In this document: positions 12,535 through 64,000 of the stretch, piece after piece
Layout: each line of letters opens with the position of its first letter
Numbering within the stretch: the stretch's first letter is position 1
NCBI RefSeq assembly: GCF_030684315.1
Contig: NC_081360.1
Location: 23,663,033-23,727,032 of the forward strand
DNA length: 64,000 nt
Direction of reading: 5' to 3'
Source: Stegostoma tigrinum
Taxonomy: Eukaryota
The notes under the pieces: model-generated
The model's database searches: none
Told to the model about the DNA's origin: nothing
Seen by the model: the letters and a program-made list of their open reading frames with translations, nothing else
Position numbers and translations under genes: made by a program

Positions 12535-12630
12535 AGCCACTTGTCAGCAGCTTTCCCTGCCCAGGACCAAAACTGAGTAAATATGAGTCAGTGTTTGAAT
12601 GTGGTGGAGGCGCAGGATATAAAGACTGAA
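12535..12630 (+). promoter_or_regulatory. Proximal promoter of paralog 1
   Basis: TGAGTCA (AP-1) 12584-12590, TGTGGT (RUNX-type) 12600-12605, TATAAA 12618-12623, about 95 nt before the ATG. The block is conserved in all three paralogs. Confidence 0.75.
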
Positions 12631-12713
12631 TGCAGCAAGGAAACGGCAGAGCAAGAGAGAGAAGCAGCTCATTTACTCTGAGAGGGCAGCAAGCTGATCA
12701 CACAAGAAGCAGA

Positions 12714-15700
12714 ATGAAAGCCTTCCTCCTCACCATTGCTGCAGTGCAGATTCTCCACTGCTCAGGTAGGTACCAGAGAGAGCTACACCTCATTGAGGAA
12801 CAAATTACTGCTAATGAGTCTCACTCGCTGAGATATCACCAATGTGTAAAAATAACTCACTGAAGAATCCAACACGATGCACTTCAGCGATTTGCGTAGT
12901 TGAAAACTGAGCAGTAACAGACTATTCCTGGAGTGTTTTGCACAATTTTCTTTTTCTCTTCACAGGAGTACCAAACCCTGAGGATGCTTTGCGGGCAGCT
13001 GTTATGAAGCTGAATGAAATAAGTGAAATCAGTCACCTTTGCCGTACCATCAGCAGCACAGTGACAGATGTAAGTGTGCCCTGGTCTCAGCCTGTTTCAC
13101 TCTCTAAAGTCTGCAAGAATGTTATTGAGAGCAGTTCCACATGAATTATTACTTAGAACAGAATGGTATATTACACACACTGACGGCAATCACGGTTCAG
13201 GAACGCAATCATGATTCAGTGTATAATTTTGAAATTCTGACTGGGGAATTAGATTAACCTGTTGTGAGTGAGGTTTGAATTTCTTCCAAGCTATATATCT
13301 AAGAGATCATAGCTGTTTTGTAGCCTTTACTTTTTACCGTTTTGCAAATAAATAGATTAAAGTTTGAAGCTTGAGTTTCAACTCCCTCTGGTTGGTGGGT
13401 CCCAAGGTGATATTGGATTTGAAATCAAGTTGATCACACCCTGTTCCCACACAGTTACCACACTGCCTGAGGCTTGTGCTCAGCTCTCCTCAAGGCAGGA
13501 GGTTCTTCAATGCAAAGAGTTTCTCCGATGAATGGATTCCTGGGCAGATTGTAGGTGCCATCCTGCTGAGCAGGAGCAAGACAGTGGTATTCAAGTAGTC
13601 TTTCCCTGGGCAGATTTTGTAGAAAACTGTCCTCACCAGGCNNNNNNNNNNNNNNNNNNNNNNNNNNNNNNNNNNNNNNNNNNNNNNNNNNNNNNNNNNN
13701 NNNNNNNNNNNNNNNNNNNNNNNNNNNNNNNNNNNNNNNNNNNNNNNNNNNNNNNNNNNNNNNNNNNNNNNNNNNNNNNNNNNTTCCGCCGCCCCCCCGT
13801 CTTATCACATCCAGCCCTCTCCCATCACACCCAACCTATGCTCCATCACCGCCTGCTCACACAATCAATGAAGTACAATGCCCACTGCCAACCCTTAGTT
13901 TTCCCTAACCCCACCTTCCCCCTCACCATTTGCTACCCCTTGATTATACTTCACCTTTTCACTACCCTCCCCAGCTCTGTCAATCCCTTCATGATCATGC
14001 AGCAAAATCTTTACTGACTGAGGTGGCCTTTGGAAGGCCTGATTCAGTAAAACCAGAATGTTCAGTTTGAAGATGGACAGAATACCCCAACCAGAGGAGT
14101 GCAGTGGTCACTCCATCCAACCAGCAATATGATGCAGCATGCAACAAAGACCCTGTTCTGCCCTGAGATTATGATACAATATTTAAAAATGTTGAGATAT
14201 TTAGGTCAGATGATGAAAGGTTTTGGTCAAATTGGTAAATTTTAAGGCAGAATCTTCAACATGAAAAAAAATCAAAACTAGGAGCAGAAGGCCATTTGGC
14301 CCTTAAAGCCTGCTTCACCATTCAGTATGGTCATGGGTGCTCACCCAACTTGGTGCCAATTTCCCTCCATTCACTTTGAACCCTTTATCACTAAGAACCA
14401 CATCTATTTTCTTTTTGTAAACATTCAATAATTTGACCTCTGTAGCAGAGAAAGGCTCATCATTCACCAGTGAAGAAATTTCATTTCAATCCTAAATGAT
14501 CTGCGATGTATCCTTATATTGTGACCACTGGACCTCAATCATTAGAATCCCTGCAGTGTGGAAACAGGCCCTTCAGCCCAACAAGTTCACACCGACCCTC
14601 AAAGCATCCCACCCAGACCATCCCCTGAATCTACACATCCCTGAACACTGTGGGCAATTTAGCATGGCCAATCCACCCAGCCTGCACATCTTTGGACAGT
14701 GGGAGGAAACCAAAGCACCCAGAGGAAACCCATGCAGACACTGGGAGAATGTGTAAACTCCACACAGACAGTCACCTGAGGGCAGATTCGAACCTGGGAC
14801 GCTGGCACTGTGAGGCAGCAGTGCCAACCACTGAGCCACAGTGCTTCCCCTAAATGTCCTGGACTGCCCGGTCATCAGGAACATCCATCGTGAGTTTACC
14901 CTGTCTATTTCTGTTAGAATTTTATAGGTTTTATGAGATTCCCTCTCATGCTACTGAACTGCAGTTAACAGTGGCCTAACCAATCCATTCTCTCCTTACA
15001 CATCAATCCTGCCATTGCGGAATTAGTCTGGTGAATCTTTGTTGTACTCCCTCTGTTGTCAGTACATCCTTCCTCAGATAAGGAGATCAAAACTGCACAC
15101 AGCATTCCAGGTGCGGTCTCACTAAGGCCTGTACAATTGCAGCAAGTCATCCCTGCCTGTGTATACAAACTCTTTCAGTATGAAAGCCAAATACCTTTTG
15201 CCTTCTTTATTGCCTTTTGCAACTACATGCACAAGGACACCCTGGTCTTGTTGCATCTGTTCCCCTTTCAAGAAAGGAAAGCAAGATAAAGAGAGGTGAA
15301 ATAGAAAGAACTCCAAAGTCTAAGGCCCAGGAAGTTTAAGGGATTGCTGCCAAAGTTGAAGAATTATAACTGTGGGAGTTCATGAAATCAGAATTAGAGG
15401 AATACAGATATCATGGAGGGATGTAGGGCTGGAACAGATTGCAGAGATAGGGCGAGTTCAGGGCCTAGAGGGATTTGAAAACAAGGATGACAATTTAAAA
15501 ACTTTAAGTATTACTTTGCTAACAGACCTGTAAGCACAGGATGACAGATGAATGTGTCAGAGGTGACAGAGTTTTAGATGAGTTCAAAGTTTATATTGTG
15601 CGCCTGCTAAAGAGACAGCATTAGAAAAAGCTAACCCTAAAGGTAACAAAGGCATGAATGAAAATTCAGCAGGACAAACATGACAAGCACACATTGTCAT

Positions 15701-18700
15701 ATTATTAAGACCTGGATGAGAATTCAAGCATGAGGATACTGTTCTACATTGTACATCACCACCCACCATTCATAAGAACACAATAAACTGAAACAGAAAT
15801 AGGCCATTCAGTCCCTCAGGCCCACCCCATAATTCTAGATCATGACTGATCAGCTTCAACACCACTTTTGTGCACTATACATATATTCTTTGATATTGTT
15901 ATTTTGTTGAAATTTACTGATCTTCATCTTGAACAGCCAAGGCTTTGCAATACTCTGGGACAGAAAAGTCCGGAAATTTTCACTCGCAAAAATTCCTTCT
16001 CATGATCATCTAATTTGCCACAGTTCAGCGTATAAAGTTTTAATGGGTTTTTATAACATACACTGTGTACCGGCCAAGTTGTTTTTCATTGACACAAGGC
16101 CAGTGAACAGGGAATCTGTCCAAATGACTCCTGGCCAGAGACTTGAGCTTGGGATGAAGATATTTTATTGTTGCCTGCCCTGATAGTTTTCTGAGAGCAT
16201 CACCATTTACCATGAATCATCTGGAGGAGATCCATCAACAAGACACTAGTGTAGCCATTCATCCGATAGACGGGCAGTTATCTAGGAAGCAGGAAAAATG
16301 TTGTCGGAATGACAAAGAAAGATAGGAACTGGAGTAGACCATTCAGCCCTTTGAGCCTGTTTCACCAGTCTGGATCACGGCTGATCATCTACCTCACCCC
16401 CACAATTTTACAAATCCCTGCAGCCACTTCCCAATCCCTCACCATTTAAAAAATACTCTGAGCCTCCATCCCTCCTACGAAAGTGGATAGCCTCACGTTC
16501 ATCCACATTATGTTCCAGCTGCTATGCATTCCACCCAAACCTGCTGGAAGCCTCTTTGAATCCTCCATGCATCTCACATTCCCCTCTCCTATAATCATCT
16601 GCAAACTTGGAAATATTACAACTGGTTCGATCATCTAAATCATTGATCTAAATTGACGAGAAACTGAAACTTCAATACAGAATCCTTTGGGCATCCTTTT
16701 GGTCAGAGCTTGCCAACCTGAGTATTATCCTTACTCTCTCTGCCTGTTAACCAATCCTCAATCCATGCTGGTATATTGCCCCATTCCATACATTTTCATT
16801 TTGCTTATTAATGCTCTGTGTGTGGCTGTATCCAAAGGCTTCCAGGGATTCAAACACGCCACATCCATTAGTTTCCCTCATTGACATTTCCAGTATTTAC
16901 CTGTATACATATACCACTAACTGATAAATCTCAGAACTTAATCAATCGCACTTCTTGAGGGCATATAACTAACATTTATTCCTTCATCTAGCTTTCTCCC
17001 ACTGGAAAATTCTCCTACAACGTGGACCTGGCATTTTCTGTGAAAGAAACCGTCTGTTCCAAAAATTCTGGGCTCGAGTTTGATGATTCTAGCTGCAGTT
17101 TCCGGCCCACGAAGATCGCTGTAAGTAACTGAATTGGTGATGAGAAAAAAACATTTCTGCCTCCATTTCTTGACCACCCCTGCTAACATGAGTGGGTTGC
17201 TGTGAAATGCACACCCAAGTGACGACAAACACTTTGTTTGTGAGCACCAACCTCATACACCAAGCATTTATTTTTTTTAAAACCAGAGGCTCACATGGGC
17301 TCACTTTGCAGGATCAGCAACATATTTTCTTCATTATAGACCGAATGAATGGTCTTATTCAGTGGAGTTTTGTCACACTGGAGGCAGGGTGGTTGAAGTC
17401 ATTCAGCTTCATGTGAAGCTGTGTTGGCTGTTCTGAGCACTCTGCCCGGATGTATTCAGAGTTTGCAACGGTTACCTGTTGCTTCCTGCAGAGGGTTTCC
17501 ATTTCTCCAAATCGTGTGGGTCAGAGCGAATGAAGGGAGGCAACTGCAAACAAACCTATCCTCATTGGGTGTGCCGGTGAGGTAGAAGAATGTTCCTTTC
17601 AGAAATAACTCTATTTAGTTGACGGTGTATTTCAACCTTAGGGTTAGCAGGAGTTGTGCTTTGTGAATTCTTTGTATTGTCAAGTGGGTAGGATAATTCT
17701 TATGAACTTGAATCTATTCTGTTTCTCATGTCTGGGCTGTATACTCCGTCCACAACAATATTAGGAATTATAGTTCAAAGTTCTATTTCACAACAAAGTT
17801 AATGAATCCATGTAAATAGAAACAGTTTCAACACCAAGAGGCCCCATAAGGTAGTATCATGGGTGCCGTGAATCTACTTTTTGTGCCCACTAATGTAGTT
17901 TTCATGGGAAAACCTCCAATTTTATTCTAATGTCAATATTTTTACTCCGTTTTCTGGTACTGTAAAAACAGAACGCATCACTGAAGAGCACAAGAGGACT
18001 GATCCAGTTAACTCTTTCTTGGCTCTCATTTATGTCAGCGATATTGTTGGGACTTCGACCCACCCTGGGACTCTGGGATAATTGCTGACACCGACGCAAT
18101 GGCTGGAAGCCAGCAGAGCTCTGCAAGACTAGTAGAGAGTGGCAGTGCATGTTGAGGGCTCAGATGTTTTGTATGGAATGTCAGACCACCCTTCACCCTC
18201 TCACCCCTATGTCTAATCTGTAAGTTTTCCATTTGCATTCCAACAATTTCTGAGTGGAACTGGAGCAAGCGGAGAAGCAAAATGAGGGAGGAAATCTCAC
18301 TGTCTCCCTTTCCCAGTAACTCCTCTCCAAGATATTCATCTACTGATGCCCATTACTTGCTAATGATCACAGGAAGGAACAGAAATATTTTTAAGGGCAA
18401 ATTGTCATTTGAGGTCCTGGCGCATTAGAGATAAGCTTCAAGGAACAACAGATCAGCAGGAGAACCACACTGTGCAGCAAATCTCCAAAGTCTGCTGCTC
18501 TAGGTATGGTAATCCTAACATCTTCACTCCCAAAAGGCAATCTGTTCAATGCACAGCAGTGGCTCAGGGGCCAGAAATTTGTCCAGGACCAGAGAATCCA
18601 TCTTTGAGCCAACAGAAGTCCCAGGTGCACAAAGAGTGGAACTAAATGTCTGGAAGCTTGATTTTTGTGAGCAAGGGACAGTGTGACAAAATGGTGGCAC

Positions 18701-21700
18701 TGTAGTTAGCGCTACAGCTCACAGTGCCAGGGACCAGGTTCAATTCCAACATTGGAATTCCAACATTCTCCCCATGTGAGTTTCTTCTTAGTGCTCTGGT
18801 TTCCACCTGCAGTCCAAAGATGTGCAGTTTAGGTGGATTGGACGTGCTAAGTTGCCCCCAAGTATCCAGCAATGTGCACATTAGATGGATTGGCTGTGAT
18901 AAATGTTAAGGAGATAGGGTGGGATGCTCTTTGGAGAGTCAGGGCTGACCCTCTTTGAACTGTAGGGATTCTGTGATTCGAGGCTGAGGGTGAGTAACAT
19001 CATTTACTCATGTGGGAATGTGTACAATGGAGAGCCTGTCAACATCCCAACTCTCGCCAATTAAATCTGGGTCGGGAAGGTCAGGAACAGCCAACTGAAA
19101 CCACATAAAGGGTCTCTGCCTGCCGCCTCTGCAGTTATGGTGAAATTATGTGGGCAGGCCACCCTGGCGGACCTGCCCTGAAGTCAGAGACTGTCTTCCA
19201 CTCAAGCACCCTGTGATCTATGGTGGGGTCCTCCAGTGGCAATTGCAGGACTTCTCACTGCCCTCCAAATGTGGGCCCCTCTGTGGCATGCCTGACCAAC
19301 TGCAGTTCTCGCCAGTGGACAGGCGCAACACAACAATTAATAAACCCAGCACAAACACGTTGAAAGCAATGGAAGAAGAGAAAACCCATTCTGTCAATCC
19401 TGCGTAATTGTGAGGCCTCACAAAGCACTAGATAGCAACGCCCTGACACCACCTGAAAATCATGCAATTTGGAAAAGATGTGAGCTGGAGAAAAACTCAG
19501 GCCACTTAAGGAGAGGGAAATCTGAAATATTGTTTTTTTGTACCTTCCCATTGGCTTTCTCCACCAGTTCTTTCTCCTGACTTCTAAAACTTGATTTTAC
19601 ACCAATGTTTCGGAAACCCAAGAGAAAGCCATGGTCATTTGCAAAGTACCGGTGTGAATAAAGGACCACTAGCTGAGACTCTGTTTCTTAGGGATGTACC
19701 AATGCAGCAGCAGATATGAAGTTTCAGGATTTGGAAAACACACACAGCAATGCTCACCCCTGATGTGGTTTTGTTTCTGCAGGAGACAGCTACATGCAGG
19801 AGTCGTGTTAAATATTTAGCTGATGAGGTACTCGATGTTGATGTTGAATGTCATGGCTTCAAGAAGGCCAGGGGCAATGGAGACTCGCTGGAGAGGCAGA
19901 GGAGTGAAAGTGAAATACACAGAGGCAACAAAGAGCAGAGTGACATTTCTCAAGGAGGGAAGGTTCACAGCAAACCCACCAAAGGCAGAAAAGGCCACAG
20001 AAGACAATCATCAAGGGCCAGTCATAACACAAGATCATCGGAATTAACCAACAGCAGTGAAGAGGTAAGCTGTCAGTCTTTAGAAGTTATTTTTTAGTCA
20101 GGTGATCATGGTCTGTTGTTCTCCCACCATCTTAAATACAAAAAAGTGAAGAACATTACATTTTAAAACAAACAAAAGTGGTGTCCGAATCAAATATGTA
20201 ATCATCCCATCCCTCCAATCCACAATATTTTCCAATATTGCATTCTACAAAGCTTTATCAAGGGCTTTACTAAAACCTCTATATACTCCATTGTCCAATT
20301 TCCCCCAACTAACACAAGTGTTAGCTTCTCAAAGAATTTTGAGGTTTACCAAGCATGGCTGATCCCACTGACATCCCTGTTTACTATTCCTAACTCCTTC
20401 CCTCTGTTTAAGCAGGTGATAATTTCATGATGAACGCAAAGTGTTTTTTTTTAATTTAAATGTTGGAGCGATTTAGTGTATTTGCTGTGTGGCGCATTTT
20501 CCAGTTCCTGTACAATTGTTAAATGGAACTCATAATGGCAATATGCTGGTTTATGGTGTGCCCATTAGATTGAACTGGGGAGAAATTACATTCTGAAACC
20601 CTAGTGGTGAACAGACTCCCTGCTCCTTATCAGTTGGCTGTCATGGGAAGCCTCGCTGTTCTAGTCATGAGCCAAAATGTAACACACAGATTAGAAGCCT
20701 CCATCCTTTTGTTCATTCACCATTACAATCTGTTAGTACTAACAGATTGTATCATTCTTTCACATTCTGCACTTATTGATAACAGGCTCAGATTAACCTA
20801 ATTGGAGGGTCTTAAAGATTTGCTGGAGACACACTGGCAACATAATAATACCACCGTCTCCCGACTTCTGTGGAGCAATAGTGAATGTGAATTGTCTCCT
20901 GGCCAAAAAATGGTACTCACCAACTATTCATAATTCCGAGTTGCCTATTCTTCCTTTTCAGTCTGATCTTACAGCTCAAATACATTGAGCATCATCTAGT
21001 TTACCCTCACCATCCCCCCGCATAATTCTCTTGCCCCCAATTGGTGCTGCCCAAGTGCTGCTTCAATATCCAAAGTTAGCTATTCTCTGCAGATACGGCA
21101 CAGCTAATAAAACGACACAGGCCTCACAGCAAGGATTACAGTTTAGTGTGCTCTACCCTTTGCCTATCCACTGAAAGTACAAATTGGCCCCAATTTATTA
21201 TTTATTGCTCAATGCTAAAGCAAAAACAGCCCAAGCAGATGAGAGCCACCTCATATTACAACTTGTATGAAAGTAGGGAAAATAGATGGATGATTTTAAG
21301 AAAGGAATTCTAGAACTTATGACTTTTACAGATGAAGGAACTGCTGAAACTGAAGTAGTGACCAAAATAAGGAATATGCAAAAAGTCAAAATTGGAAAAC
21401 ATATCTCAGAGAGTTGTGAGCCTCGGGAGTTTATAGAGGTGTTGGGGGGGGGGGGGGGCGCTGCGGTGCTGTGGGGGTGAAGCCATTATCATTAAGAATA
21501 TGAATAATATTCCACCATGACAAATTCAATATCAATGTTTCAGGGGAGCAAAGCTGAAGTGTAGAAAGATTCCCTGACAGAAACAACTTGCTAAATCAAT
21601 CTGAATAGATGATTATTACAAAACAATGTTCCCACTTTCACCTCTCGGACTTGCAACAGTTAGAAAATATGCTTGCAGAGAACTGGCCCTTCTCGACCAT

Positions 21701-22454
21701 AAGCTATTGCAAAATGCTTTAGTGCAGTTCATATTATTCAATTAATCTGGTAAATGCGCTATATGTTAGTGTTCTATCCTTGTAATCACCTCAAGTCCAC
21801 CAAACCTCCAAGATATCTGTTGTGCATTCCCAGTTTTAATGCCTCAAGCAGTAATGGCTGTGCCTTCAGTTGCCTAGGCCCTAAGCTTTTAAATTCTTTC
21901 CCTAAACCTTTTGCTCTGCCTACCTTATTTTCATCTTCTGAGGTGCTTCTCAAAACATAACTCTTTAAACAAGCTTCTGGTCACCTGTCCTGTTATTTCC
22001 TTAGGTGGCTTGGTGTCATACTTTGTTGTATCATGATGAACTTTGGGACATTCATTACATTAGTACAACATAAATATAAACTGTTATGTTCAATACAACC
22101 ATTCACCTAACCCCTGAGCCACAATCACATGTTGACAAAGAAGGAAATCTACTCTTCTATCTATGTTATGTTATTTCATTTATATCTTTTGTTTGGAAAT
22201 CATTTTGAAATTTGGTTCTTCGGGTTAAATGTCTTAATATTTCAACGCAGCTGAAAATGACATCAAGGGAATCATGGATGGAGGAATCTCTAAACGTGAG
22301 TAAGCTTGGACTTTGTGTCAGAGAATTACCTCTCAATCATGATCATAACAACAATAAAGCTTTGAACTCAGACAGAGTTCTGTCCATCTGAAAATGACTA
22401 CTTTTTCCATTCTGTTAATTCCAGGAATATGAAGATTCAAGATCCCGACACTAA
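12714..22454 (+). CDS. spp2: SPP2 (secreted phosphoprotein 24)-like secreted cystatin/cathelin-domain protein, paralog 1, ~213 aa, 6 coding exons
   Basis: join(12714-12765,12966-13069,16992-17120,19783-20064,22251-22295,22425-22454), all introns GT-AG, frame open. Protein: MKAFLLTIAAVQILHCSG VPNPEDALRAAVMKLNEISEISHLCRTISSTVTD LSPTGKFSYNVDLAFSVKETVCSKNSGLEFDDSSCSFRPTKIA ETATCRSRVKYLADEVLDVDVEC...TNSSEE LKMTSRESWMEESLN EYEDSRSRH*. Motifs DAL..AV.KLN, FSVKETVC..SG....C.F and TATCRSRVK.....V..V...C match SPP2 as recalled (DALSASVVKVN / FSIRETTCRKDSG / TAVCRSTVKV). ATTAAA at 22514-22519. An N gap lies in intron 2. Confidence 0.85.
13642..13783. other. Assembly gap (142 N) in intron 2 of paralog 1
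   Basis: Run of N. Confidence 1.
14275..15260 (-). mobile_element. CR1 LINE fragment interrupted by a SINE
   Basis: CR1 3' sequence on both sides of the SINE at 14541-14849; ORFs at 14965 and 15122(-) resemble CR1 ORF2 (DLLQLYRP). Confidence 0.75.
14541..14849 (-). mobile_element. tRNA-derived SINE (HE1-like)
   Basis: Reverse complement begins gcactgtggctcagtggttggcactgctgcctcacag (A box), then ggttcgaatc (B box), the gtctgtgtggagtt..cacattctccc core and a CR1-like tail. Confidence 0.9.
15290..15715 (-). mobile_element. Old L2-like LINE fragment
   Basis: gaactccaaagtctaaggccc...gagggatttgaaaacaaggatga motif, shared with 56690-57220 and 57990-58255. Confidence 0.5.
16320..16880 (-). mobile_element. 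CR1 LINE fragments (3' tail joined to RT region)
   Basis: taggaactggagtagaccattcagccc tail followed by decayed RT-region sequence (catctgcaaacttgg, tccaaaggcttcc). Confidence 0.6.
18690..18980 (+). mobile_element. tRNA-derived SINE (HE1-like), decayed
   Basis: atggtggcactgtagttagc...ggttcaattcc...agtccaaagatgtgcag...tgtagggattctgtgattc. Confidence 0.8.
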
Positions 22455-32520: not shown

Positions 32521-32571
32521 GTGATCATGTCTTAAAGATGTGAAGAACATAGCAAGCATCAAATCAGAGAT

Positions 32572-42674: not shown

Positions 42675-42770
42675 AGCCACTTGGCAGCAGCTTTCCCTGC
42701 CCAGGACCAAACTGAGTAAATATGAGTCAGTGTTTGACTGTGGTGGAGACACAGGATATAAAGACTGAAC
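42675..42770 (+). promoter_or_regulatory. Proximal promoter of paralog 2
   Basis: TGAGTCA 42723-42729, TGTGGT 42739-42744, TATAAA 42757-42762; same spacing as paralog 1. Confidence 0.75.
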
Positions 42771-42852
42771 ACAGCAAGGAAACGGCAGAGCAAGAGAGAG
42801 AAGCAGCTCCTTTACTCTGAGAAGGCAGCAAGCTGATCACACAAGAAGCAGA

Positions 42853-45800
42853 ATGAAGGTCTTCCTCCTCACCATTGCTGCAGTGCAGATTCTCCACTGC
42901 TCAGGTAGGTGCCAGAGAGAGCAGCACCTCATCAAGCAACGAGTTATTGGCAGTGAGGCTCACTCGCTGAGATATCACCAATGTGTAAAATAACTCGCTG
43001 AAGAACTCCAGAATGTTTTGTACAACTTTTCTTTTCTCTCGACAGGAAAACCAAGCCCGAAAGATGCTCTGAGAGTGTCTGTTCTAAAACTGAACCGAAT
43101 CACTGAGACCAGCAATCTGTGCGGGATAACTAGGAGAAGAGTGAAGGATGTAAGTGTGTCCCGGTCTCAGTCAGTTTCACTCTCTAAACTCTACGACATC
43201 ATTACTGAGTGCAGTTCACACAGATTATTACACAGGAGCAGAGTGTTATTATACACTTGGGCTGATGGGTGAATGAGCCCAGAGTAAGAATACCAGACAC
43301 AGTCAGACACAATCAGACACTAATAAACTGTTTTTCTCCCATCAGATTTATCGCACAGGGAAATTGTCATACAACGTGGATTTAACATTCTCTGTGAAAG
43401 AAACCGTCTGCTCCAAGAATTCTGGACTGGAATTTGATGATCCCAGCTGCCGCTTCCGAACCAAAAAGTCTGCAGTAAGTTCTTAGTTACATAGCCGCAT
43501 CCAAACCCTCATATGTATACCATAGAAAAGATCATGTACACTGAGTTATGTCATAGGAAGGGCAATATGACCTCAATTAGAGGTCACATTTACTGACATA
43601 TCACATAGAAAGGGTGATGTATATTGACAGAAACAACCGTGTGCCATGGATTATGTCGTAGAGAGATTGTCTCAACTGAGTACATAGTAGAAAGGGTTGT
43701 GCGTACTGGGATATACTATAGAAAGTAGAATGTGCAGTAAATTACATCATGAATGCTCCTTAAGTGATTGCCAAGCTTGTTGTGATCAATAACCTCAATG
43801 CTCTCTCATTTCATTTGGCAGGCGAAAGGATTTTGCAAGAGCCACGTTGAATATTTTGCTGATGAAGTTGTTGACATTGATGTGGAGTGTCGGGGATTGA
43901 AGACATTTGACAGCAGAAGTGGATCTTTCGAGTCCAGTGAAAACAGCATCGAGGTAACCTCACAACGTAACTCATCTGGACAATAGGGTCTCTGATTTTG
44001 CGCTTTAGTCTAGACCAGATTTTGTCAGGCTCAAAGTTGTATTTTGAATCTTCAAACTCTTCCTTTGGCAAACTCCTGTGGCAATGAAATAATAATCAGA
44101 CTTGTTCCTTGCTTTGCACCAGCAGTAGACATGTACAGAGATATTATTACTGCTTGCTGCTGTTCAAAGAAATAATTCCTCTTTATTATCTGAGGGTTAA
44201 CAGGACACAGTCCATTGTGTTGCTTTAATACTTCGACCATTGACCAAACTGAACCAGGACTGCACTCATTATTGTTATACCATAAACTATCCACATATTT
44301 GATGAAGCCTTCACCACTCCACACTGAAACACTGCACCCCATCCCAGAAATTTAACCATTTAAAATTCCTCATTTAATTTTAAAGGGTTACCGAATTGGG
44401 AATCATGCTCAAATTAATGCTTCACTCCTGTCCCAGGGCTAAACAGCAAAATATTTTGATTTTAATTCAGGTGAAAACCAGGAAAACATCTCGCCCAGGA
44501 GTCTACAAACGTGAGTATAAATCTGGATTTTTACCACAACACTATTGGCAACAACAAAGTGTATTTCTCTGGTTAGAGTGGAGTCTGTGACAGCACTGTG
44601 CTGTGTTTTTATTGAATTCAATGTCATCCAGAATAAGTTGGGAAAGGAAGACAAACACAAGAATCTTGTCAAGTCTTTGCCTGTGCTCATCAAAGGATGT
44701 TGGGAGGAACTTAAGTAGAGATGTTTGCTTTTCCCCATGAAGAATATCTCACACTAGAATAATGTAATCGAATCGACTTTTGCATTTTCAATACTTACCA
44801 GACAATAATTCCTGTGTAAAATTAAAATAACGCAGATTCTGAAAACTAGACACAAAACCAGTAGGTGCCGGTGTATCTCAGCAGATCTGGCAGCGCCTGT
44901 GGAGCGAGATGCAGAACTGCTCTGCCAAGGCCAGTATGACTTTTGAAGAAGAGTAAAACCTGTTTCTCTTTCCAAAGATGCTGCCAGACTGGCTGAGGTT
45001 CTCCAGCATTCCTTGTCTTTTCAATAGTTCTTGTGTTCTTGAGAGAATACACCAGATATAAACCGATCAACAATCTCCCACCATGTTAGTTTATCCACCA
45101 ACACCACAGCTCCACCGTCCCACAAGTGGAATGATTATTGCTGTGCTGGAGAATAGGAGATATTTGAAGAGGGATCCTCCACTCCAGTCCTGAGTCTCTG
45201 AATCTCGACTCCAAAATTTAAGGAGTTAACAGCTCATCATGTTTTTAAACATAGCAGTACAGAACTCAGTTATTCACAGAAGAATCTGATAGTTTAGAAC
45301 AATAACAAAATGATTCATTGATTCCTGACAATAAATCAATAATCTGATATTTTTAAATGCAGGTGTGAAGCAAATCAAAAGACTGGTCACTGCGGGAGGC
45401 TTCAAACGTGAGTATAAACTGGAACTTTGCGCCAAGAATTGTCTCTCAATCATGATCATCCATAACAATAAAACATTGAACTCAATCCATCCACCGTGGC
45501 CCAGTGGTTAGCACTGTTCCCTCACAGCACCAGGGAACCGGGTTGATTCCACCCACAGGCGACTGTCTGTGTGGAGTTTGCACATTCTCCCCGTGTCTGC
45601 GTGGGTTTCCTTCGGGTGCTCCGGTTTCCTCCCTCAGTCCAAAGATGTGCAGGCTAGGTAGATTGGCCATGTTAAATTGCCCATAGTGCTTAGGCATGTG
45701 TAGATTAGGTGGGTTATCGGGGATAGGTCTGGGTGGGGTGCTCTGAGGATCGATGTGAGCTTGGTGGGCCATAGGACCTGTTTCCACACTGTAGAGATTC

Positions 45801-45853
45801 TGTGATAATAACTATTGTGTTCATTTCTGTTCATTCCAGGAACACTGTGGTGA
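42853..45853 (+). CDS. spp2: SPP2-like paralog 2, ~171 aa, with frameshifted cationic C-terminal tail
   Basis: join(42853-42904,43046-43149,43346-43474,43822-43953,44471-44510,45363-45407,45840-45853), GT-AG introns. Protein: MKVFLLTIAAVQILHCSG KPSPKDALRVSVLKLNRITETSNLCGITRRRVKD IYRTGKLSYNVDLTFSVKETVCSKNSGLEFDDPSCRFRTKKSA AKGFCKSHVEYFADEVVDIDVECRGLKTFDSRSGSFESSENSIE VKTRKTSRPGVYKRVKQIKRLVTAGGFKRTLW*. Exons 1-4 are well supported by paralogy. The tail depends on inclusion of the 40-nt exon. Confidence 0.8.
45495..45803 (+). mobile_element. tRNA-derived SINE (HE1-like) in the last intron of paralog 2
   Basis: gtggcccagtggttagcactg...cctgtttccacactgtagagattctgtga; absent from the homologous last introns of paralogs 1 and 3. 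Confidence 0.9.
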
Positions 45854-55722: not shown

Positions 55723-55845
55723 CTGATGAAGGGTCTTGGCCCGAAATGTCAGCTTTTGTGCTCCTGAGAGGCTGCTTGGCCTGTTGTGTTCATCCAGCTC
55801 CAAGCTTTGTTATCTCGGATTCTCCAGCATCTGCAGTTCCCACTA
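55723..55845 (+). mobile_element. Solo Penelope terminus
   Basis: Near-identical to 62463-62590. Confidence 0.8.
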
Positions 55846-56487: not shown

Positions 56488-57377
56488 AGTGGTGGCACAT
56501 TGAGTCCATAGCACTCTGCCAGCTTACCATATCAATGCCAGGATAGTCCAGGGGCATTCCAGAGTGTTTGCAACTAACCAGAATGGAATAATTTTAAAAA
56601 TTACATTCATACAATACATTTTAACTTAAAATTTGCAAGTGACTTCAGAGCATCTTTATCAAGTACCATGTCACAGAAAGAAAGAGGCAGTTGGGTGACT
56701 GAAAGCTTACTGAAAGACATGGATTTGACATAGAATCCTAAAGGGTGGAAGTGAGGTACAGGATGAAGTCTTAGAGCTTACACTCCATGCAGATGAAGAT
56801 GTTATCATCAATGGTGCAGTAGTCAAAAAGTGGTGAGCTCAAGAGGCCAGATTACAGAAATCTGGAGTGTCGTGAGGCTTGAAGAGACCAGAGTGAGAAG
56901 GAACGGTGAAACCACGCAGGGATTTGAAATTACGGGTAATATTTGAAAATTACATATTGCTTAACTGGAAGCCAAAGTAAGGCAGTCAAAGAGGTGAATG
57001 GAATTTGACATTTGACGTTGAATTTGGAACGATTTCAGGTTTAGGCAGGGAAGATGCAGGAAGCCAGCTAAGAGAATATTGGAATAGTGATGTCTCGAGG
57101 TAACAAATGCACGATTGAGGTTTCAGGAGCAGATGAGGTAATATGTGGGCAAATATTACAGAGATGGAAACAGGCAGTTTTAGTAATGGCACAGATATGT
57201 AATCGGAAGCTCAGCGCAGTGAGCAATTCCTAATGGATTGAAGGTACCTTTGTATAACTTAGAAGTGATCAATTCCTGTCCTTTGACAGTTCATCACTTC
57301 ATATTCTGAGGAATAATCTGTGATCTCACCAAATCTAAACATGATGGCTCTATGGGGTGGAAGCTCTGCCCATATTA

Positions 57378-57475
57378 GAGCCACTTGGCAGCAGCTTTCC
57401 CTGTCCAAGACCATAGTTGAGTAAATATGAGTCAGTGTTTGAATGTGGTTGAGGCGCGAGATATAAAGACTGAAC
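57378..57475 (+). promoter_or_regulatory. Proximal promoter of paralog 3
   Basis: TGAGTCA 57428-57434, TGTGGTT 57444-57450, TATAAA 57462-57467; same spacing as the other two paralogs. Confidence 0.75.
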
Positions 57476-57557
57476 GCAGTAAGGAAAGGGCACAGCAGGA
57501 AAGAGAAGCAGCTCCTTTACTCTGAGAAAGCAGCCAGCCGATCACACAAGAGGCAGA

Positions 57558-60500
57558 ATGAAAGCCTTCCTCCTCACCATTGCTGCAGTGCAGATTCTCC
57601 ACTGCTCAGGTAGGTACCAGAGAGAGCTACACCTCATCAAGCAACGAGTTATTGGCAATGAGTCTCACTCACTGAGATATCACCAATGTGTAAAATAACT
57701 CGCTAAAGAACTCCAGAATGTTTTGTACAACTTTCCTTTTCTCTCGACAGGAATACCAAGCCCAAAAGATGCTCTGAGAGTGTCTGTTCTAAAACTGAAC
57801 CAAATCACTGAGACCAGCAATCTGTGTGGGATAACCAGGAGAAGAGTGAAGGATGTAAGTGTGTCCCAGTCTCAGTCAGTTTCATTCTCTAAACTCTACG
57901 ACAATGTTACTGAGTGCAATTCACTCAGATTATTACACAGGCGCAGAATGTTATATTGCACTTAGGCTGGTGAATCAGACTGGAGGTAGGGAGAGATGAA
58001 ATCGAGCAGGGATTTGAAAGGAGGGTAGCAATTTTGCAATCAATGTGCTGCTTAGTTCATACCCAAAAGAAGACAATGAGCACTGGGATAAATGGAACTA
58101 GATGTGAATTAAGTACTCACACCAGAATTCTGGGTGACCACAATTTTACAGGTTGAGGATTTGGAAGGTCATTAAGGGAATGTTAGAAAAGTGAGGTCCG
58201 GAGCAAACAAATGCACGAGAGGTTTTAAGAGCAAATGAAATTAGGCAGGACTGAATGACATCAGATACAGCCAGATAGTAATAAGCTGCCTCCCTCATTA
58301 GATTCAACGCACTGGAAAATTGTCATACAACATGGATTTAACATTCTCTGTGAAAGAAACAGTCTGCTCCAAGAATTCTGGACTGGAATTTGATGATCCC
58401 AGTTGTTTCTTCCATCCCAAAAAGACTGCGGTAAGTTCAAAAGTCACATTGTCACACCCAGACCAACATGCATAATGATATCATTGAATGCGATTTTAAT
58501 CAATTCTGCTTTGACAGGAAAAAGGTTTGTGTAAAAGTCGTGTTGAATACTTTGCTGATGAGGTTATTGATGTTGCTGTGGAGTGCCGGGGGTTGAAGAC
58601 ATTTGATAGCAACAGCGACGTTTCAGAGTTGACTGAAAACAGTATTGAGGTAATTTCATAACTGTACATATCCGCTTAATGAGATTTTTAATATCGCAGA
58701 TAATTTACATTTCTCATTGGTCTGCTGTGCTAAATAGAGAAATATTAATATTTTATTACAGGTCAAAACTAAGTCAAAGGAGATACCAAATGAGGATTCA
58801 ATTAATGTGAGTACAAAGTAGGAATTTGTCAGATTTTTCTCATTGATCAGGAAAATTCATAAAATGCTTAAACTCCAGGATCAAACTGTGTCAGAGCAAA
58901 GTATCAGACAGCAAGTTGCTTTAATCAGAGATAGTAGGGCAGGAGAACCAAAATACAGAGAAAGTTTGTTCTTTCCTATGGACCAATCAACTACACAGGT
59001 ACAAACAATGACATTAGAAAACCAGTATCTCTTACAATTTTATAAATGATGAATACTAATTACTTGTCATTTGCTGATGGAAATGCGGGTTTGTCACAAT
59101 AAATCGCAATTAATGGAGAATCAGAGCCTCCATTCTTTTATCCATCAATCCCACAGACTGTGTTGATCAGTGCTGTGCTAGAAATTTTCAGTAAGGATTT
59201 CCCGACTCCAGACATAACCCTATCAGATCATAGGCTGCTCTTTTGTTGCGGGAGAGAGACAACTAGTAGTGGTTTAACCTGAGGTTCACAACATCTCAGG
59301 TACGGGGATAGTTTGAAGAGGAGACTCTTTCATGCCAACTTCATTCTGTGCAGGAATTGAACCCGCACTGTTGGTGTCACTCATCACCCGTCCAGCCAAC
59401 TAAAGCTAACAGAATTTCCCAAAGGTAAAACACTGAGACACCGACTGCCAATTTGGAAACTCAAAACATTGCCCCTTCCACATTTGGAACCTTGTTGACA
59501 TTTAATTGTTTTGTTTCGAGTTGATGCCACAAATCAAAATACTAAACGTTCTAATCTGGATATTTTAATCCAGGAGGAAAGCAAGTCCACCGAATCATCG
59601 CTGGAGGAGTCTCCTGATGTGAGTACTATCTGAGATATTTTCTGTCAGCTAGCTATAACAAATGTAAACTGTTGAAAGCTTGATTCAGCTGTATCAGAAC
59701 AAGAGTTTGAACCAGCACTATGTATTTCATTTAGTTAAATGCATTTCTACGACCTAAAAATTGAAAACAGTTAACATTTCCTAATTTATGGTTTATTAAT
59801 CACTAAATCTTTGGCTTAAAAATAATTTCAGTTATAGTAGTAGTATTATAATACTAGTTTATAATTTAATTGTCTTAAATATAATTCTATAGTTCAATAT
59901 TTGTAATAAAATATTAAATCATTTCCCTGCAATAACAAGATGTATCTGAATATTTTATTCCAGGTGAAAAGCAAGTCAACAGAAACATCCCTTGAGGACT
60001 TTCCCAATGTGAGTATTTATTTTTTATTTTATATTTATTGCACTATTTCTTCATGGAGCATGCTCATTAACCAAGAGTCATGTATGGTGGTTAGTGCCAT
60101 GGGGCAGGGTGAGGAGGATGCTGGGTCCAAGAGCTACCTCAGCTGGTGTAAGAATTGAGCCCACCCTGTTGCCATTGTTCTGCATCAAACTCTCTCGACT
60201 TAACAACTGTGCTAACCCCACCATCTGATAGTTATCACTTCAGTTGTTGGATTGATGCTAATTGAATGATGATTGATTCCTCACATTGAGAAGTTTCCAA
60301 TAACTGGAGGGACACAAATGATGGTTTCATGAGGACAGCATCACTGTCATTCTCCTCATTCAATCGATTAGGAATTACTGGTTTTTCTGAAAGTGTGAAT
60401 ACATTACACACTCATCAATGGAAAACGTCAGCCTGTGTGTGTGTGTTGTTTGTGGTGGTGGAGTGTCATGGTGCACTGGAGCACCAGCCACATTGATTAG

Positions 60501-63500
60501 ATTAGATTCCCTACAGTGTGGAAACAGGCCCTTCGGCCCAACAAGTTCACACCGCCCCCTGAGGCATCCCACTCAGACCCATCCCCCTATAATCCACACA
60601 CCCCTGAACGCTATGGGCAATTTAGCATGACCAATCCACCTAGCATGCACATCTTTGGACTGTGGGAGGAAACCGGAGCACCGGACGAAACCCACGCAGA
60701 CACAGGGAGAATGTGCAAACTCTTCACAGACAGTTGCCCGAGGCAGGAATCGAACCCGGGTCCCTGGCACTGTTAGGCTGCAGTGCTAACCACTAAGGGA
60801 CCGTGCTGCCCTAAATTTGGCAAGGATTTCTCTGCTCCAGCACTGTGTCACTGAATTCAGACTCTGAACTTGAAAGAGTTGTCACTGCCTCATTGACAAT
60901 CTGATATTATTTCACTATTTTGCTTAGAGATGACTTGAAAAATTGAGATTATTTGCAAAATGCTAAGTATTTAAGCATTTTTTTTAATGCAGGTGAACAG
61001 CCAGTCAACAGAAACATCATTTGAAGATTCTGTAAATGTGGGTATAATCTGGGATTTTCTGTCATAATTATTTACGCAAAGAAAATGTTAAAACTTGGAA
61101 TTAACTGCATCACGCTTAAAAGCAATTCAGTTTTTATTAAATTAAATGAATGTCTAGAGAATAGAAGGTTCAAGAGTTAACATTTTCTCATTTATGGTTT
61201 AATGATCACAGCAATCTTTGATTTAAAAACTAAGTCGTGAAATTGTTGATATACAGTTCGGGACACCATACATCAGATGAATGTGAATGCATTTGAGAGA
61301 GTGCAGAAGAGTTTTACAAGAGTGATTTCAGGGAAGAGAAATTTCAATTATGAAAATAGATTGGAGAAGTTCACAGAATCATGGAATCATAAAATTTGAG
61401 TCCATTTTCCTTAGATAGGAGAAGGTTAAGATGAGATTTGATAGAAGGTTTCAAAATCAAAAGGGGTTGAAACCAACTGGAGAGAAAGAAACTGCTAGAT
61501 AATAAAATGTGAGGCTGGATGATGTTGTACCTACAACGCATCATCCTCCGACACTTCCGCCATTTACAATCCGACCCCACCACCCAAGACATTTTTCCAT
61601 CCCCACCCCTGTCTGCTTTCCGGAGAGACCACTCTCTCCGTGACTCCCTTGTTCGCTCCACACTGCCCTCCAACCCCACCACACCCGGCACCTTCCCCTG
61701 CAACCGCAGGAAATGCTACACTTGCCCCCACACCTCCTCCCTCACCCCTATCCCAGGCCCCAAGATGACATTCCACATTAAGCAGAGGTTCACCTGCACA
61801 TCTGCCAATGTGGTATACTGCATCCACTGTACCCGGTGCGGCTTCCTCTACATTGGGGAAACCAAGCGGAGGCTTGGGGACCGCTTTGCAGAACACCTCC
61901 GCTCAGTTCGCAACAAACTACTGCACCTCCCAGTCGCAAACCATTTCCACTCCCCCTCCCATTCTCTAGATGACATGTCCATCATGGGCCTCCTGCAGTG
62001 CCACAATGATGCCACCCGAAGGTTGCAGGAACAGCAACTCATATTCCGCCTGGGAACCCTGCAGCCATATGGTATCAATGTGGACTTCACCAGTTTCAAA
62101 ATCTCCCCTTCCCCTACTGCATCCTTAAACCAGCCCAGTTCGTCCCCTCCCCCCACTGCACCACACAACCAGCCCAGCTCTTCCCCCCCACCCACTGCAT
62201 CCCAAAACCAGTCCAACCTGTCTCTGCCTCCCTAACCGGTTCTTCCTCTCACCCATTCCTTCCTCCCACCCCAAGCCGCACCCCCATCTCCTACCTACTA
62301 ACCTCAACCCACCTCCTTGACCTGTCCGTCTTCCCTGGACTGACCTATCCCCTCCCTACCTCCCCACCTATACTCTCTCCACCTATCTTCTTTACTCTCC
62401 ATCTTCGGTCCGCCTCCCCCTCTCTCCCTATTTATTCCAGTTCCCTCTCCCCATCCCCCTCTCTGATGAAGGGTCTAGGCCCGAAACGTCAGCTTTTGTG
62501 CTCCTGAGATGCTGCTTGGCCTGCTGTGTTCATCCAGCCTCACATTTTATTATCTTGGAATTCTCCAGCATCTGCAGTTCCCATTATCTCAGAAAGAAAC
62601 TGCTCCCTGTTTATAAATGAATGCATCAAGAATGAGAAAACAGAGATATCAGGTAATTTAAAAAAGATGCAAATGTAACGTGAGAAAAAAAGACTCTTTC
62701 ACACAGTGAGTAGTTGTGGTCTAGAACACACTGCCTGGAAATATGGTGGAGACAGGTTCAATTGAAACAAATGGAAACTTACTTAGGATTACGAGAAAAG
62801 GCGCTAAAATAACAGAGTCACAATGCTCAGTCAGAGAGATGATTTAGAAACAATGGGCCAAATGGCCTAATTCTGTACTATAATGGTGCTGTGACAAAGA
62901 TAGTTTCATTATTCAATGTTAATTAAAAAATAGCTCATGGATTCCTTGTGTAAGCATAGTAGCCCGAATATTTTAATGCAGGTGTAAAGTCTCATTTACA
63001 ATCAGATATCATTTAAACTGCTGTTTAGAGCAGAATCTAAAAGGTCAACATTATTTAGAAATACTAAGTATATAAATCTGCATACTCTAGGTGAGGAGCA
63101 AATCAACAGAAACATCAGTGGAGGATTCTCCAGATGTGAGTACAACCTGAAATTTTATGTTGTTTATACTATTAACACAAATAAGCTGTTGAAACCTGGA
63201 TTCAGTTGCAATGCACAAGTCTGACACAGCTCTGTGTTTTTAACCAATTCAACATATGTACAGGCTCTATAAATTTAAACAGTTAATATGTCTTCATTAA
63301 TGGCTTAGTAATCAGAAGAACCTTTGGTACAAAAATAATTTCAATGCTCAATAACAGATGAAAGACATATCATTGATTCCCTTTAATAACCAGATGAATC
63401 TTAATTGTTTTTAAACAGTTGAACAACAAGTCAACAGAAACATCATTCGATGTGTCATCAAATGTGAGTATAAATTGAACGTTAGTGTCAGAGAATTGTC

Positions 63501-63609
63501 TCTCGATCATAATAATATATTGAACTCACGTTGAACTCAGCCCATTTGAAAATGACCATTATTTTTGTTCTGTTCATTCCAGGAACAAAATGATGATTCA
63601 AGATCTTAA
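57558..63609 (+). CDS. spp2: SPP2-like paralog 3, ~237 aa, with six-repeat acidic S-x-E tail (11 coding exons)
   Basis: join(57558-57609,57751-57854,58302-58430,58518-58649,58762-58806,59574-59618,59964-60008,60993-61037,63091-63135,63419-63463,63583-63609), GT-AG introns, frame open. Exon 2-4 lengths (104/129/132 nt) equal those of paralog 2. Tail: VKTKSKEIPNEDSIN EESKSTESSLEESPD VKSKSTETSLEDFPN VNSQSTETSFEDSVN VRSKSTETSVEDSPD LNNKSTETSFDVSSN EQNDDSRS*. ATTAAA at 63669-63674. Confidence 0.85.
60494..60811 (-). mobile_element. tRNA-derived SINE (HE1-like) in a paralog 3 intron
   Basis: gattagattagattccctacagtgtggaaacagg...gctaaccactaagggaccgtgctgccc. Confidence 0.9.
61497..62590 (+). mobile_element. 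5'-truncated young Penelope-like element (GIY-YIG endonuclease) in a paralog 3 intron, nested in an old CR1 fragment (~61255-62890)
   Basis: ORF 61519-62235 with NVVYCIHCTRCGFLYIGETKRRLGDRFAEH...LGTLQPYGIN. 14-bp TSD agaaagaaactgct at 61483-61496 and 62591-62604. 61497-61522 is an exact inverted copy of 62530-62555. Confidence 0.93.
62463..62490 (+). ncRNA. Candidate minimal hammerhead ribozyme core in the Penelope terminus
   Basis: CUGAUGA-A-GGGU-CUAG-GCCC-GAAA-CG-UC: both catalytic boxes, a stem II and a minimal stem III. Stem I pairing is weak (about 2 bp). Confidence 0.5.
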
Positions 63610-64000
63610 CTAGGAATGAAACTTCTGAAAGTCTGAACTTGATGTGAACACAAGAAGACCTCATTCATATTAAAGAAAATGTTACCAATTGTACTTTATT
63701 TGTTCATTAATAAGGATGAAGGGACCTGGGGTTCCTGTCTGTATATTTTACTGTAACTGGGAGATTCTATAATTTGTAAATGTTCCGTCCTTTGGTGTAT
63801 GTGGTTATCTTGGTTTCTATGGACCATATTAAAATTGTAAAGAATATTTTCTGGTGTTTCTCATTTCAGTGATTAGATTGGAGTTTAAACTGATATGGTG
63901 CTCAATTCAACCTGTCACACACTGTGACCAATTCCGGCGGTTTACTGGTGGGGCTGCTGGGGAATTGGGGATTTACTGCTGAAATTGGATGAGTGAGAAA

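What the first reader, a model, noticed from the sequence alone, without database searches (positions are those of the whole stretch)
12535..63675. Tandem SPP2/cathelin-fold gene cluster whose three members have chemically opposite, exon-modular tails
Seen: three spliceable paralogs invisible in the ORF track, with the same promoter module, signal exon and exon phases (1,0,0,0), and exon 2/3 lengths of 104/129 nt. Their tails are a basic insert plus one S-x-E unit (paralog 1), a cationic peptide (paralog 2) and six acidic units (paralog 3). Established: SPP2 is typically single-copy in mammals and is a cystatin-fold phosphoprotein tied to mineral and BMP/TGF-beta binding; cathelicidins share the fold. 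The FSVKETVC motif here is as close to cathelin (FTVKETVC) as to SPP2 (FSIRETTC). Inference: a lineage-specific expansion that uses one secreted scaffold to display either mineral-binding or cationic tails. I do not know of a description of this system.
Basis: partly seen in the sequence, partly recalled or inferred. Interest (0 to 1): 0.85.

Follow-up and report, generated by a model that had tools for sequence, protein, structure and literature searches.

The report
Frameshift-born cationic shark cartilage protein
This is part of a recently published shark gene cluster for cartilage-mineralising proteins, but one member turns out to read its acidic, mineral-binding tail exons in a shifted frame, which gives a positively charged tail that sharks and rays have both kept.

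Summary
The three genes are real and spliceable as described. They are shark spp2 (secreted phosphoprotein 24) paralogs, not cathelicidins. The tandem cluster and its acidic S-x-E tails were published in 2026 (PMC13188829). Paralog 1 is that paper's spp2.2; paralogs 2 and 3 are spp2.3.

Not in that paper's text: paralog 2's cationic tail is two copies of the same 45-nt acidic exon, read out of frame after a net 5-nt loss. It is not decay. The same tail, with the same 12-residue spacer, occurs in 12 named proteins from 8 sharks and 4 rays. The catshark ortholog, spp2.3s2, is abundant in cartilage (2692 TPM) and near absent from gill, spleen and blood. That argues against an antimicrobial role.

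The cystatin cores of the cationic genes group by lineage with acidic neighbours, and their monophyly is rejected (AU p about 1e-7 or lower). This points to gene conversion rather than only recent duplication.

Likeliest function, untested: a polyanion-binding matrix anchor working beside acidic mineral-binding siblings.

The parts
12514..12865 (+). P1 promoter, 5' UTR, signal exon (12714-12765) and start of intron 1; homogenised with P2/P3
   Evidence: 86-92% identity upstream, exon 1 96-100%, intron 1 start 86-89%, against 64-66% in exon 2
12714..22454 (+). Paralog 1 = spp2.2 ortholog, 213 aa. Exons 12714-12765, 12966-13069, 16992-17120, 19783-20064 (basic insert), 22251-22295 (one S-x-E unit), 22425-22454
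   Evidence: 79% identical to catshark P0038, whose insert is what the paper's spp2.2 probe encodes when read by eye
42653..42852 (+). P2 promoter/5' UTR module: TATAAA -96, TGTGGT -114, TGAGTCA -130 (RUNX- and AP-1-like; motif names recalled)
42853..45853 (+). Paralog 2 = ortholog of catshark spp2.3s2, 171 aa, cationic tail. Exons 42853-42904, 43046-43149, 43346-43474, 43822-43953, 44471-44510, 45363-45407, 45840-45853
   Evidence: 92% identical to Rhincodon P0010; same junction pattern in the spp2.3s2 probe (by eye)
44471..44510 (+). P2 exon 5: copy of the 45-nt acidic exon shortened to 40 nt; causes the frameshift (phase 0 in, phase 1 out)
   Evidence: PWM score 12.8 with a 5-nt gap vs maximum 4.8 in 2000 shuffles; the gap position is not resolved
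45363..45407 (+). P2 exon 6: full 45-nt acidic-type exon read in the shifted frame; the old frame has a stop at codon 2
   Evidence: PWM score 21.8 vs maximum -3.4 in 10000 shuffles; 21-30 of 45 bases match the seven acidic exons; three-frame translation
57358..57557 (+). P3 promoter/5' UTR module
57558..63609 (+). Paralog 3 = acidic spp2.3 gene, 237 aa. Exons 57558-57609, 57751-57854, 58302-58430, 58518-58649; six 45-nt phase-0 units at 58762, 59574, 59964, 60993, 63091, 63419; last exon 63583-63609
   Evidence: 95% identical to Rhincodon P0002

Best explanation
The genes encode secreted Spp24-type matrix proteins of mineralising shark cartilage: signal peptide, cystatin-fold domain ending in a 19-residue disulfide loop, a serine-rich stretch, then a tail. 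In P3 (and in P1's single unit) the tail is built from symmetrical 45-nt exons of S-x-E sites which, once phosphorylated by Fam20C, would bind calcium phosphate (inferred from the family). Before sharks and rays split, one spp2.3 copy with two such exons lost a net 5 nt in the first. That shifted the rest into a Lys/Arg-rich frame, and selection has since held a 12-residue basic core nearly fixed (well supported by sequence comparison). In sharks its 5' half keeps being homogenised with acidic neighbours while its tail is not (supported by the tree test). Most likely function (inferred, not shown): P2 is two-ended. It keeps three S-x-E sites and the cystatin domain, and its cationic end binds polyanions of the cartilage matrix (sulfated glycosaminoglycans, possibly also the phosphorylated tails of its siblings). 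This would anchor the Spp2 scaffold and locally mask the charge where mineral starts. Confidence by step: frameshift origin and conservation about 0.93; recurrent conversion about 0.8; polyanion-anchor function about 0.5. The score given is for the function.
For: Exon homology. Cationic tails of 7 of 7 other sharks tested match the offset-2 translation of the window's acidic exons (shuffle p 0.003 or less) and neither other offset (p 0.06 or more). Polarity: spp2.2 (P1) and the chimaera protein P0113 both end in the acidic frame. The spacer is 12 aa in 12 of 12 relatives. The 12-aa core is 82% identical between sharks and rays, against 75% for the cystatin domain. Picked by charge alone, 15 of 115 non-spp2.2 tails are net +3 or more, and 12 of those 15 carry the motif. 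Catshark probe vs window, by eye: 5 differences in 15 core codons, all synonymous in the new frame, and the old frame is stopped at the same codon. Expression of spp2.3s2: Meckel's 2692, vertebrae 2378, chondrocranium 877 TPM; 12 TPM or less in the 28 other samples. It rises from 266 to 1205 TPM during mineralisation and is the highest of the 6 listed spp2.3 genes before it. An XBBXBX heparin-binding-type pattern (name recalled) is present in 12 of 12. Precedent for a cationic GAG-binding end on a cartilage protein: PRELP (PMC2806584).
Against: No binding, proteomic or functional data exist here. Expression is from the catshark, not this species. TPM may be mis-split among paralogs 95-99% alike in the 5' half, and the in situ probes cross-react. 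XBBXBX is easy to meet in any K/R-rich peptide. The tail helix has pLDDT under 50 and its amphipathicity is not significant (p about 0.07). The 15-codon window was chosen after looking; over the 29 codons up to the end of exon 6 there are 8 amino-acid differences and 6 synonymous-only ones, mostly at the ends. No cationic member was found among the listed Mobula proteins or in the chimaera.
Confidence: 0.5

Rival explanations
1. The cationic tail re-creates the arginine-rich C-terminus of mammalian Spp24, so P2 is the high-affinity BMP/TGF-beta-sequestering member, perhaps switched off by cleavage at its two invariant Lys-Arg pairs.
For: Mammalian Spp24's arginine-rich end is proteolytically trimmed, and trimming lowers TGF-beta affinity by 1-2 orders, with qualitatively similar results for BMP-2 (PMC3753320 passages and Discussion part 2). 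The 19-aa Cys100-Cys118 loop has the TRH1 length in all three genes. Both KR pairs are present in 13 of 13. tgfb2 rises in the same tissue.
Against: The tail is not descended from the mammalian tail's frame, it comes from the acidic exons. No binding data. Which part of the mammalian C-terminus raises affinity is undefined in the passages read. Not exclusive of the best explanation.
Confidence: 0.25
2. P2 works like a cathelicidin: the cystatin pro-domain carries a cationic helical peptide that a protease releases to kill microbes, here guarding avascular cartilage.
For: Cystatin/cathelin fold (top hits chemerin, hCAP18 cathelin domain, cystatins). Tail +7 to +16 directly after an acidic spacer, predicted helix at 150-163, hydrophobic moment 0.7.
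Against: The ortholog has gill 2, spleen 3, blood 0, oesophagus 7, denticles 0.1 TPM, and no spp2.3 gene exceeds 37 TPM outside skeleton, so read mis-assignment cannot hide immune expression. Seven coding exons, not four. Below the Cathelicidins cut-off. A near-fixed core is unlike fast-evolving defence peptides (recalled). Healthy animals only; infection was not tested.
Confidence: 0.12
3. The frameshift simply removed the S-x-E repeats; the tail itself is a tolerated by-product or the gene is decaying.
For: The first 10 tail residues are only 36% identical pairwise, and stop positions differ (23 to 47 aa, one model 117).
Against: The core is better conserved than the cystatin domain across the shark-ray split. 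Core differences to catshark are synonymous (by eye). Scyliorhinus duplicated exon 6 in the new frame (P0045; probe).
Confidence: 0.06
4. Direction reversed or repeated: the cationic frame is ancestral and the acidic units arose from it, or the frameshift happened independently in each lineage (which would remove the need for gene conversion).
For: The cystatin-core tree needs 8 changes of tail type, as repeated origins would also give. No bony-fish, lamprey, spp2.1 or spp2.Like outgroup sequence was obtained.
Against: spp2.2 and the chimaera gene use the acidic frame. Identical spacer length and core in 12 of 12 are very unlikely from independent events. Homogenisation is visible in the window itself: P1 differs from P2/P3 at 0-1 of 17 third positions in exon 1 but 18 of 34 in exon 2.
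Confidence: 0.07

Closest known systems
Elasmobranch spp2 tandem cluster, clades spp2.2 and spp2.3 (Debiais-Thibaud et al. 2026, PMC13188829)
   Same: Same genes: tandem copies, cystatin-like domain, S-x-E tails, expression in mineralising chondrocytes. P1 = spp2.2, P2 = spp2.3s2 type, P3 = acidic spp2.3.
   Different: The text says all duplicates accumulate S-x-E motifs and that catshark proteins lack an arginine-rich end except spp2.1 (and L2), and it reads species-level grouping as recent independent duplications. It has no occurrence of frameshift, exon, gene conversion, concerted, cationic, cathelicidin or antimicrobial. Fig. 9 and the .fas alignments could not be seen.
Mammalian Spp24 (SPP2)
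   Same: Signal peptide, Spp-24 domain, 19-aa disulfide loop, serine-rich stretch; P2 also ends in a basic tail.
   Different: Single copy, liver-made and blood-borne; the shark genes are multi-copy and made by chondrocytes, and P2's basic tail arose separately by frameshift.
Cathelicidins
   Same: Cystatin/cathelin fold followed by a cationic C-terminal segment; clustered genes.
   Different: Below the Pfam cut-off, 6-11 coding exons rather than four, tail split over three exons, cartilage rather than myeloid or epithelial expression.
euAP3 motif of APETALA3 (PMC1513400, abstract)
   Same: After duplication a small deletion shifted the C-terminal frame and the new motif became conserved.
   Different: Plant transcription factor; here a secreted matrix protein whose charge is inverted, and whose shifted exon can itself be duplicated.
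PRELP glycosaminoglycan-binding end (PMC2806584, passages)
   Same: Short, highly cationic terminal segment on a cartilage matrix protein that binds heparan and chondroitin sulfate.
   Different: Unrelated fold, N-terminal; binding is shown for PRELP and only inferred for P2.

Membership tests
SPP2/Spp24 | Spp-24 cystatin-like domain above Pfam's cut-off | tested here: met
   Exon 3 alone 26.2, 25.1, 26.5 bits vs 26; nearest full-length relatives of P1, P2, P3 score 48.5, 38, 36
SPP2/Spp24 | Four conserved domain cysteines, last two bounding a 19-aa loop | tested here: met
   Cys 74, 87, 100, 118 in all three, plus 16 and 43; loop length from PMC3753320
SPP2/Spp24 | Serine-rich S-x-E region after the domain | tested here: met
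   5, 3 and 12 S-x-E after Cys118
SPP2/Spp24 | N-terminal signal peptide | tested here: inconclusive
   Hydrophobic 17-aa exon 1, helix 4-17 in the P0010 model; no signal-peptide predictor was run
SPP2/Spp24 | Synteny with nme9/vps8/sh3bp4/arl4c | not testable with these tools
   No flanking gene recognised in the window; P1-P2 adjacency matches the neighbouring rows spp2.2 and spp2.3s2 in the paper's catshark table
SPP2/Spp24 | Fam20C phosphorylation, mineral and BMP/TGF-beta binding | not testable with these tools
   Needs experiments
Cathelicidin | Cathelin domain above Pfam's cut-off (21 bits) | tested here: not met
   12.9-14.6 on exon 3; 13.7-19 in 3 of 6 full-length relatives, absent in 3. 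One fused model, P0001, carries a precomputed PF00666 label
Cathelicidin | Cystatin/cathelin fold | tested here: met
   Model of P0010 matches the hCAP18 cathelin domain at E 2e-4, with cystatins and chemerin alike; does not discriminate
Cathelicidin | Four exons, mature peptide in exon 4 (PMC3487008) | tested here: not met
   6, 7 and 11 coding exons; P2 tail spans exons 5-7
Cathelicidin | Cationic C-terminal peptide | tested here: met
   P2 only: +11 in 32 aa
Cathelicidin | Myeloid or barrier-epithelium expression | tested here: not met
   Catshark ortholog's published TPMs; not measured in this species
Cathelicidin | Protease release and antimicrobial activity | not testable with these tools
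   Needs experiments

The most novel reading that the evidence does not exclude
Elasmobranch calcified cartilage is built with a two-component Spp2 system made from one exon read in two frames: a frameshift-born cationic member, switched on first, binds the sulfated matrix and recruits the phosphorylated acidic members that nucleate or stabilise mineral. Gene conversion keeps promoter and scaffold the same, so both are co-expressed while their tails stay opposite. The chimaera, which lacks the cationic member in the data seen here, mineralises poorly.
Probability: 0.3. Interest if true: 0.82.

Novelty: new variant of a known kind. Interest (0 to 1): 0.62.

Why it matters
How sharks and rays mineralise cartilage without bone is an open question, and the spp2 cluster is the main new candidate. 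One of its two most highly expressed cartilage members in catshark is not an acidic phosphoprotein at its end but a cationic one, which changes the mechanism to be tested and gives a short peptide to assay. It is also a clear animal case of a frameshift turning an acidic repeat into a conserved basic motif. And if the 5' halves are homogenised by gene conversion, trees of this family overstate recent independent duplication, and pan-spp2.3 probes mix chemically opposite proteins.

Tried and rejected
(1) I first guessed P2 was the paper's gill-expressed spp2.1, which would have favoured an antimicrobial role. The spp2.1 probe encodes a different, more divergent protein, and it was not found in the window. 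Rejected.
(2) Assembly error or recent decay as the cause of the 40-nt exon: rejected by 12 named relatives.
(3) The old-frame ending still visible in P2's 3' UTR was not used for polarity, because conversion could preserve it; the catshark 3' UTRs of spp2.2, s2 and s7 look near-identical by eye.
(4) A tail-only homolog search (P0010 132-171) gave 5 of 5 candidates, all already known spp2 proteins; it missed even the ray orthologs, so it says little about absence elsewhere. The ESM Atlas gave no usable hit for the tail. A PDB sequence search gave only cystatin F at E 0.09.
(5) Cluster-member look-up could not be made, so species hidden inside clusters (e.g. Stegostoma, Chiloscyllium, Carcharodon, Leucoraja) are unconfirmed and accession-level orthology rests on the paper's probes.
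(6) One search's charge classification failed on a wrong spacer and was redone.
(7) No complex prediction was run: disordered charge-charge binding is not what it tests.
Full report
Observation. Gene models built from them have canonical splice sites at every junction and give 213, 171 and 237 aa. Exons 1-3 are 52, 104 and 129 nt with phases 1,0,0,0. P1 has a long exon 4 with a basic insert and one 45-nt unit, P2 a 32-aa tail of net +11, P3 six 45-nt units of net -14 with the last exon. No fourth copy was found. The nearest proteins are from carpet sharks (P1 91% to a Chiloscyllium cluster; P2 92% and P3 95% to Rhincodon); I did not identify the species.

Family. A profile of the three exon-3 translations found 125 proteins, 120 listed; 118 of these carry shark, ray or chimaera names, nearly all 'secreted phosphoprotein 24-like', and 2 are unnamed. 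Pfam Spp-24 passes its cut-off in 6 of 6 full-length relatives and Cathelicidins in none. An AlphaFold model of the whale-shark ortholog of P2 (mean pLDDT 68; only 1 of 5 models above 50) has a cystatin fold with a low-confidence tail and matches chemerin, cathelin domains and cystatins about equally. So these are Spp2 proteins; the fold does not make them cathelicidins.

What is already known. PMC13188829 (BMC Biol 2026) describes this cluster: clades spp2.1, 2.2, 2.3 and Like, S-x-E tails, and expression of 2.2/2.3 in mineralising chondrocytes. I read its abstract, part of Results section 5, sections 6, 7, 10, 18, 20 and 22, word searches of the whole text, and supplements S11-S13, S18 and the first part of S14; figures and .fas alignments were not visible, and probe cells were cut at 400 characters. 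Read by eye, its spp2.2 probe encodes the basic insert of catshark P0038, the ortholog of P1; its spp2.3s2 probe encodes the cationic tail of P2; its spp2.1 probe is a different gene. The text nevertheless says the catshark proteins lack an arginine-rich end except spp2.1 and never mentions frameshift, exon, gene conversion or cationic. Searches for 'secreted phosphoprotein' + frameshift + elasmobranch and for spp2 + elasmobranch + 'gene conversion' returned 0 papers; 'secreted phosphoprotein 24' + shark + cartilage returned only this paper. Subscription journals and theses are not covered.

The cationic tail is a frameshift. P2 exon 5 is 40 nt and exon 6 is 45 nt; both have the splice context of the acidic units. 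Against a matrix of the seven acidic exons, exon 6 scores 21.8 (10000 shuffles, maximum -3.4) and exon 5 with a 5-nt gap 12.8 (2000 shuffles, maximum 4.8). In the old frame exon 6 has a stop at codon 2 and otherwise reads like an acidic unit. Conversely the acidic exons read at offset 2 match the cationic tails of 7 of 7 other sharks (p 0.003 or less), and offsets 0 and 1 do not. spp2.2 and the chimaera protein end in the acidic frame, so the cationic frame is derived; more distant outgroups were not obtained.

It is old and under selection. Of 133 stored proteins, 2 unnamed were left out, 6 did not parse and 10 were spp2.2-type. Of the remaining 115, 15 have a tail of net +3 or more: 12 with the shared motif (Rhincodon, Hemiscyllium, Mustelus, Scyliorhinus, Cetorhinus, Heterodontus, Heptranchias, Pristiophorus; Pristis, Hypanus, Narcine, Amblyraja), 2 basic in the old frame and 1 apparently mis-modelled; the other 100 have a median of -6.5. 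The spacer before the motif is 12 aa in 12 of 12. The core VYKRVKQIKRLV is 82% identical between sharks and rays against 75% for the cystatin domain, while the first 10 tail residues are 36% identical pairwise. By eye, window and catshark differ at 5 positions in 15 core codons, all synonymous in the new frame; that window was chosen after looking, and over 29 codons there are 8 amino-acid differences. The catshark old frame is stopped at the same codon, and exon 6 is duplicated in the new frame. These are database gene models plus one probe based on an annotated transcript; no raw reads were seen.

Concerted evolution. A tree of the 100-column cystatin core (115 rows; 13 failed to parse; partial and fused models were not entered) keeps spp2.2 as one clade (SH-aLRT 98) but places shark cationic genes among acidic genes of their own lineage; the four ray cationic genes group together. 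On 83 of the 115 rows (ray acidic genes thinned to two per species; one probably mis-modelled ray row dropped after seeing the tree) the label needs 8 changes, and monophyly is rejected for all 13 cationic rows (p-AU 5e-61) and for the 9 shark ones (1e-7) under LG+G4, quick search. In 5 of 9 sharks the core is closer to a same-species acidic paralog than to any other cationic gene; in 4 of 9, including this one, and in all 4 rays it is not. The alignment is short and most forks are unresolved. In the window, P1 differs from P2/P3 at 0-1 of 17 third positions in exon 1 but 18 of 34 in exon 2, and P2/P3 share 91.5% over 614 bp including intron 1. One ancient frameshift plus repeated exchange of the 5' half explains both patterns; it qualifies the paper's reading of independent recent duplications.

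Function. Catshark spp2.3s2 has 2692, 2378 and 877 TPM in three skeletal tissues and at most 12 in the other 28 samples; it is the highest of six listed spp2.3 genes before mineralisation (266 TPM vs 17-123) and rises to 1205. Reads may be mis-split among paralogs, but no spp2.3 gene exceeds 37 TPM outside skeleton, so immune or barrier expression is not hidden. The shared promoter holds TGTGGT and TGAGTCA, which I recall as RUNX and AP-1 sites; being homogenised they count as one weak observation. I therefore favour a matrix role: a cationic end that binds sulfated glycosaminoglycans or phosphorylated sibling tails, on a protein that keeps three S-x-E sites and the TRH1-length loop (0.5). PRELP is the precedent (PMC2806584, passages). 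Second is a re-invented arginine-rich end that raises BMP/TGF-beta affinity as in mammalian Spp24 (PMC3753320, passages and Discussion part 2; 0.25). A cathelicidin-like role is third (0.12; PMC3487008 passages for the definition). None of these was tested.

Other papers: PMC1513400 (abstract) is the closest precedent for a conserved frameshift-born motif; PMC2784779 (passages) treats Spp24 and cathelicidins as separate vertebrate cystatin families; PMC6795676 (passages) says shark antimicrobial peptides are little studied.

Verdict. The cluster is known; the frameshift-born, elasmobranch-wide cationic member and the conversion pattern were not found in print in the searches named. New variant of a known kind, interest 0.62.

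Noticed in passing
window 55566-55698 (-): U8 snoRNA match, full length, 74 bits vs gathering 41, between P2 and P3; gene or dispersed copy not determined.
   Followed up: no
window 9490-10425: 33-bp minisatellite, 28.5 copies, with stop-free frames on both strands; a degenerate related array lies near 3100-4150 (-). No convincing Pfam match.
   Followed up: partly
window 32974-35100 and 61513-62600: Fragments of a Penelope-like retroelement (weak RVT_1 and GIY-YIG matches, both below cut-off; class name inferred), 94% alike over 300 nt; one copy sits inside a P3 intron.
   Followed up: partly
window 18690-18960, 33680-33900, 45480-45800, 60500-60820, 14535-14855, 51714-52017: Repeated SINE-like elements; one is inserted in P2's last intron between the frameshifted exon 6 and the last exon.
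   Followed up: no
stored proteins P0112 (Rhinoraja) and P0086 (Hemitrygon): A second route to a basic tail in rays without frameshift: Lys-rich units in the old frame, or an Arg-rich repeat of the last exon.
   Followed up: no
stored proteins P0064/P0065 (Narcine isoforms X3/X2): Two annotated isoforms share a core; one ends in acidic units, the other in what looks like their shifted-frame reading, so splicing alone may switch frames in one gene.
   Followed up: no
window 43822-43953 joined to 45840: Skipping P2 exons 5 and 6 would restore the old-frame ending; skipping exon 6 keeps a short basic tail; skipping exon 5 stops at once. No transcript evidence.
   Followed up: partly
window 12963-12968 and 59571-59576: Tandem NAGNAG-type acceptors at P1 exon 2 and P3 unit 2 allow a one-codon-shorter form.
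   Followed up: no
window 13642-13783: 142-base assembly gap in P1 intron 2; does not touch an exon.
   Followed up: yes
catshark spp2.1 (PMC13188829; not in window): The divergent spp2.1 gene is the one with gill, olfactory and skin expression (6145 TPM in gill) and a reported arginine-rich end, so it is the better candidate for a barrier-defence role.
   Followed up: no
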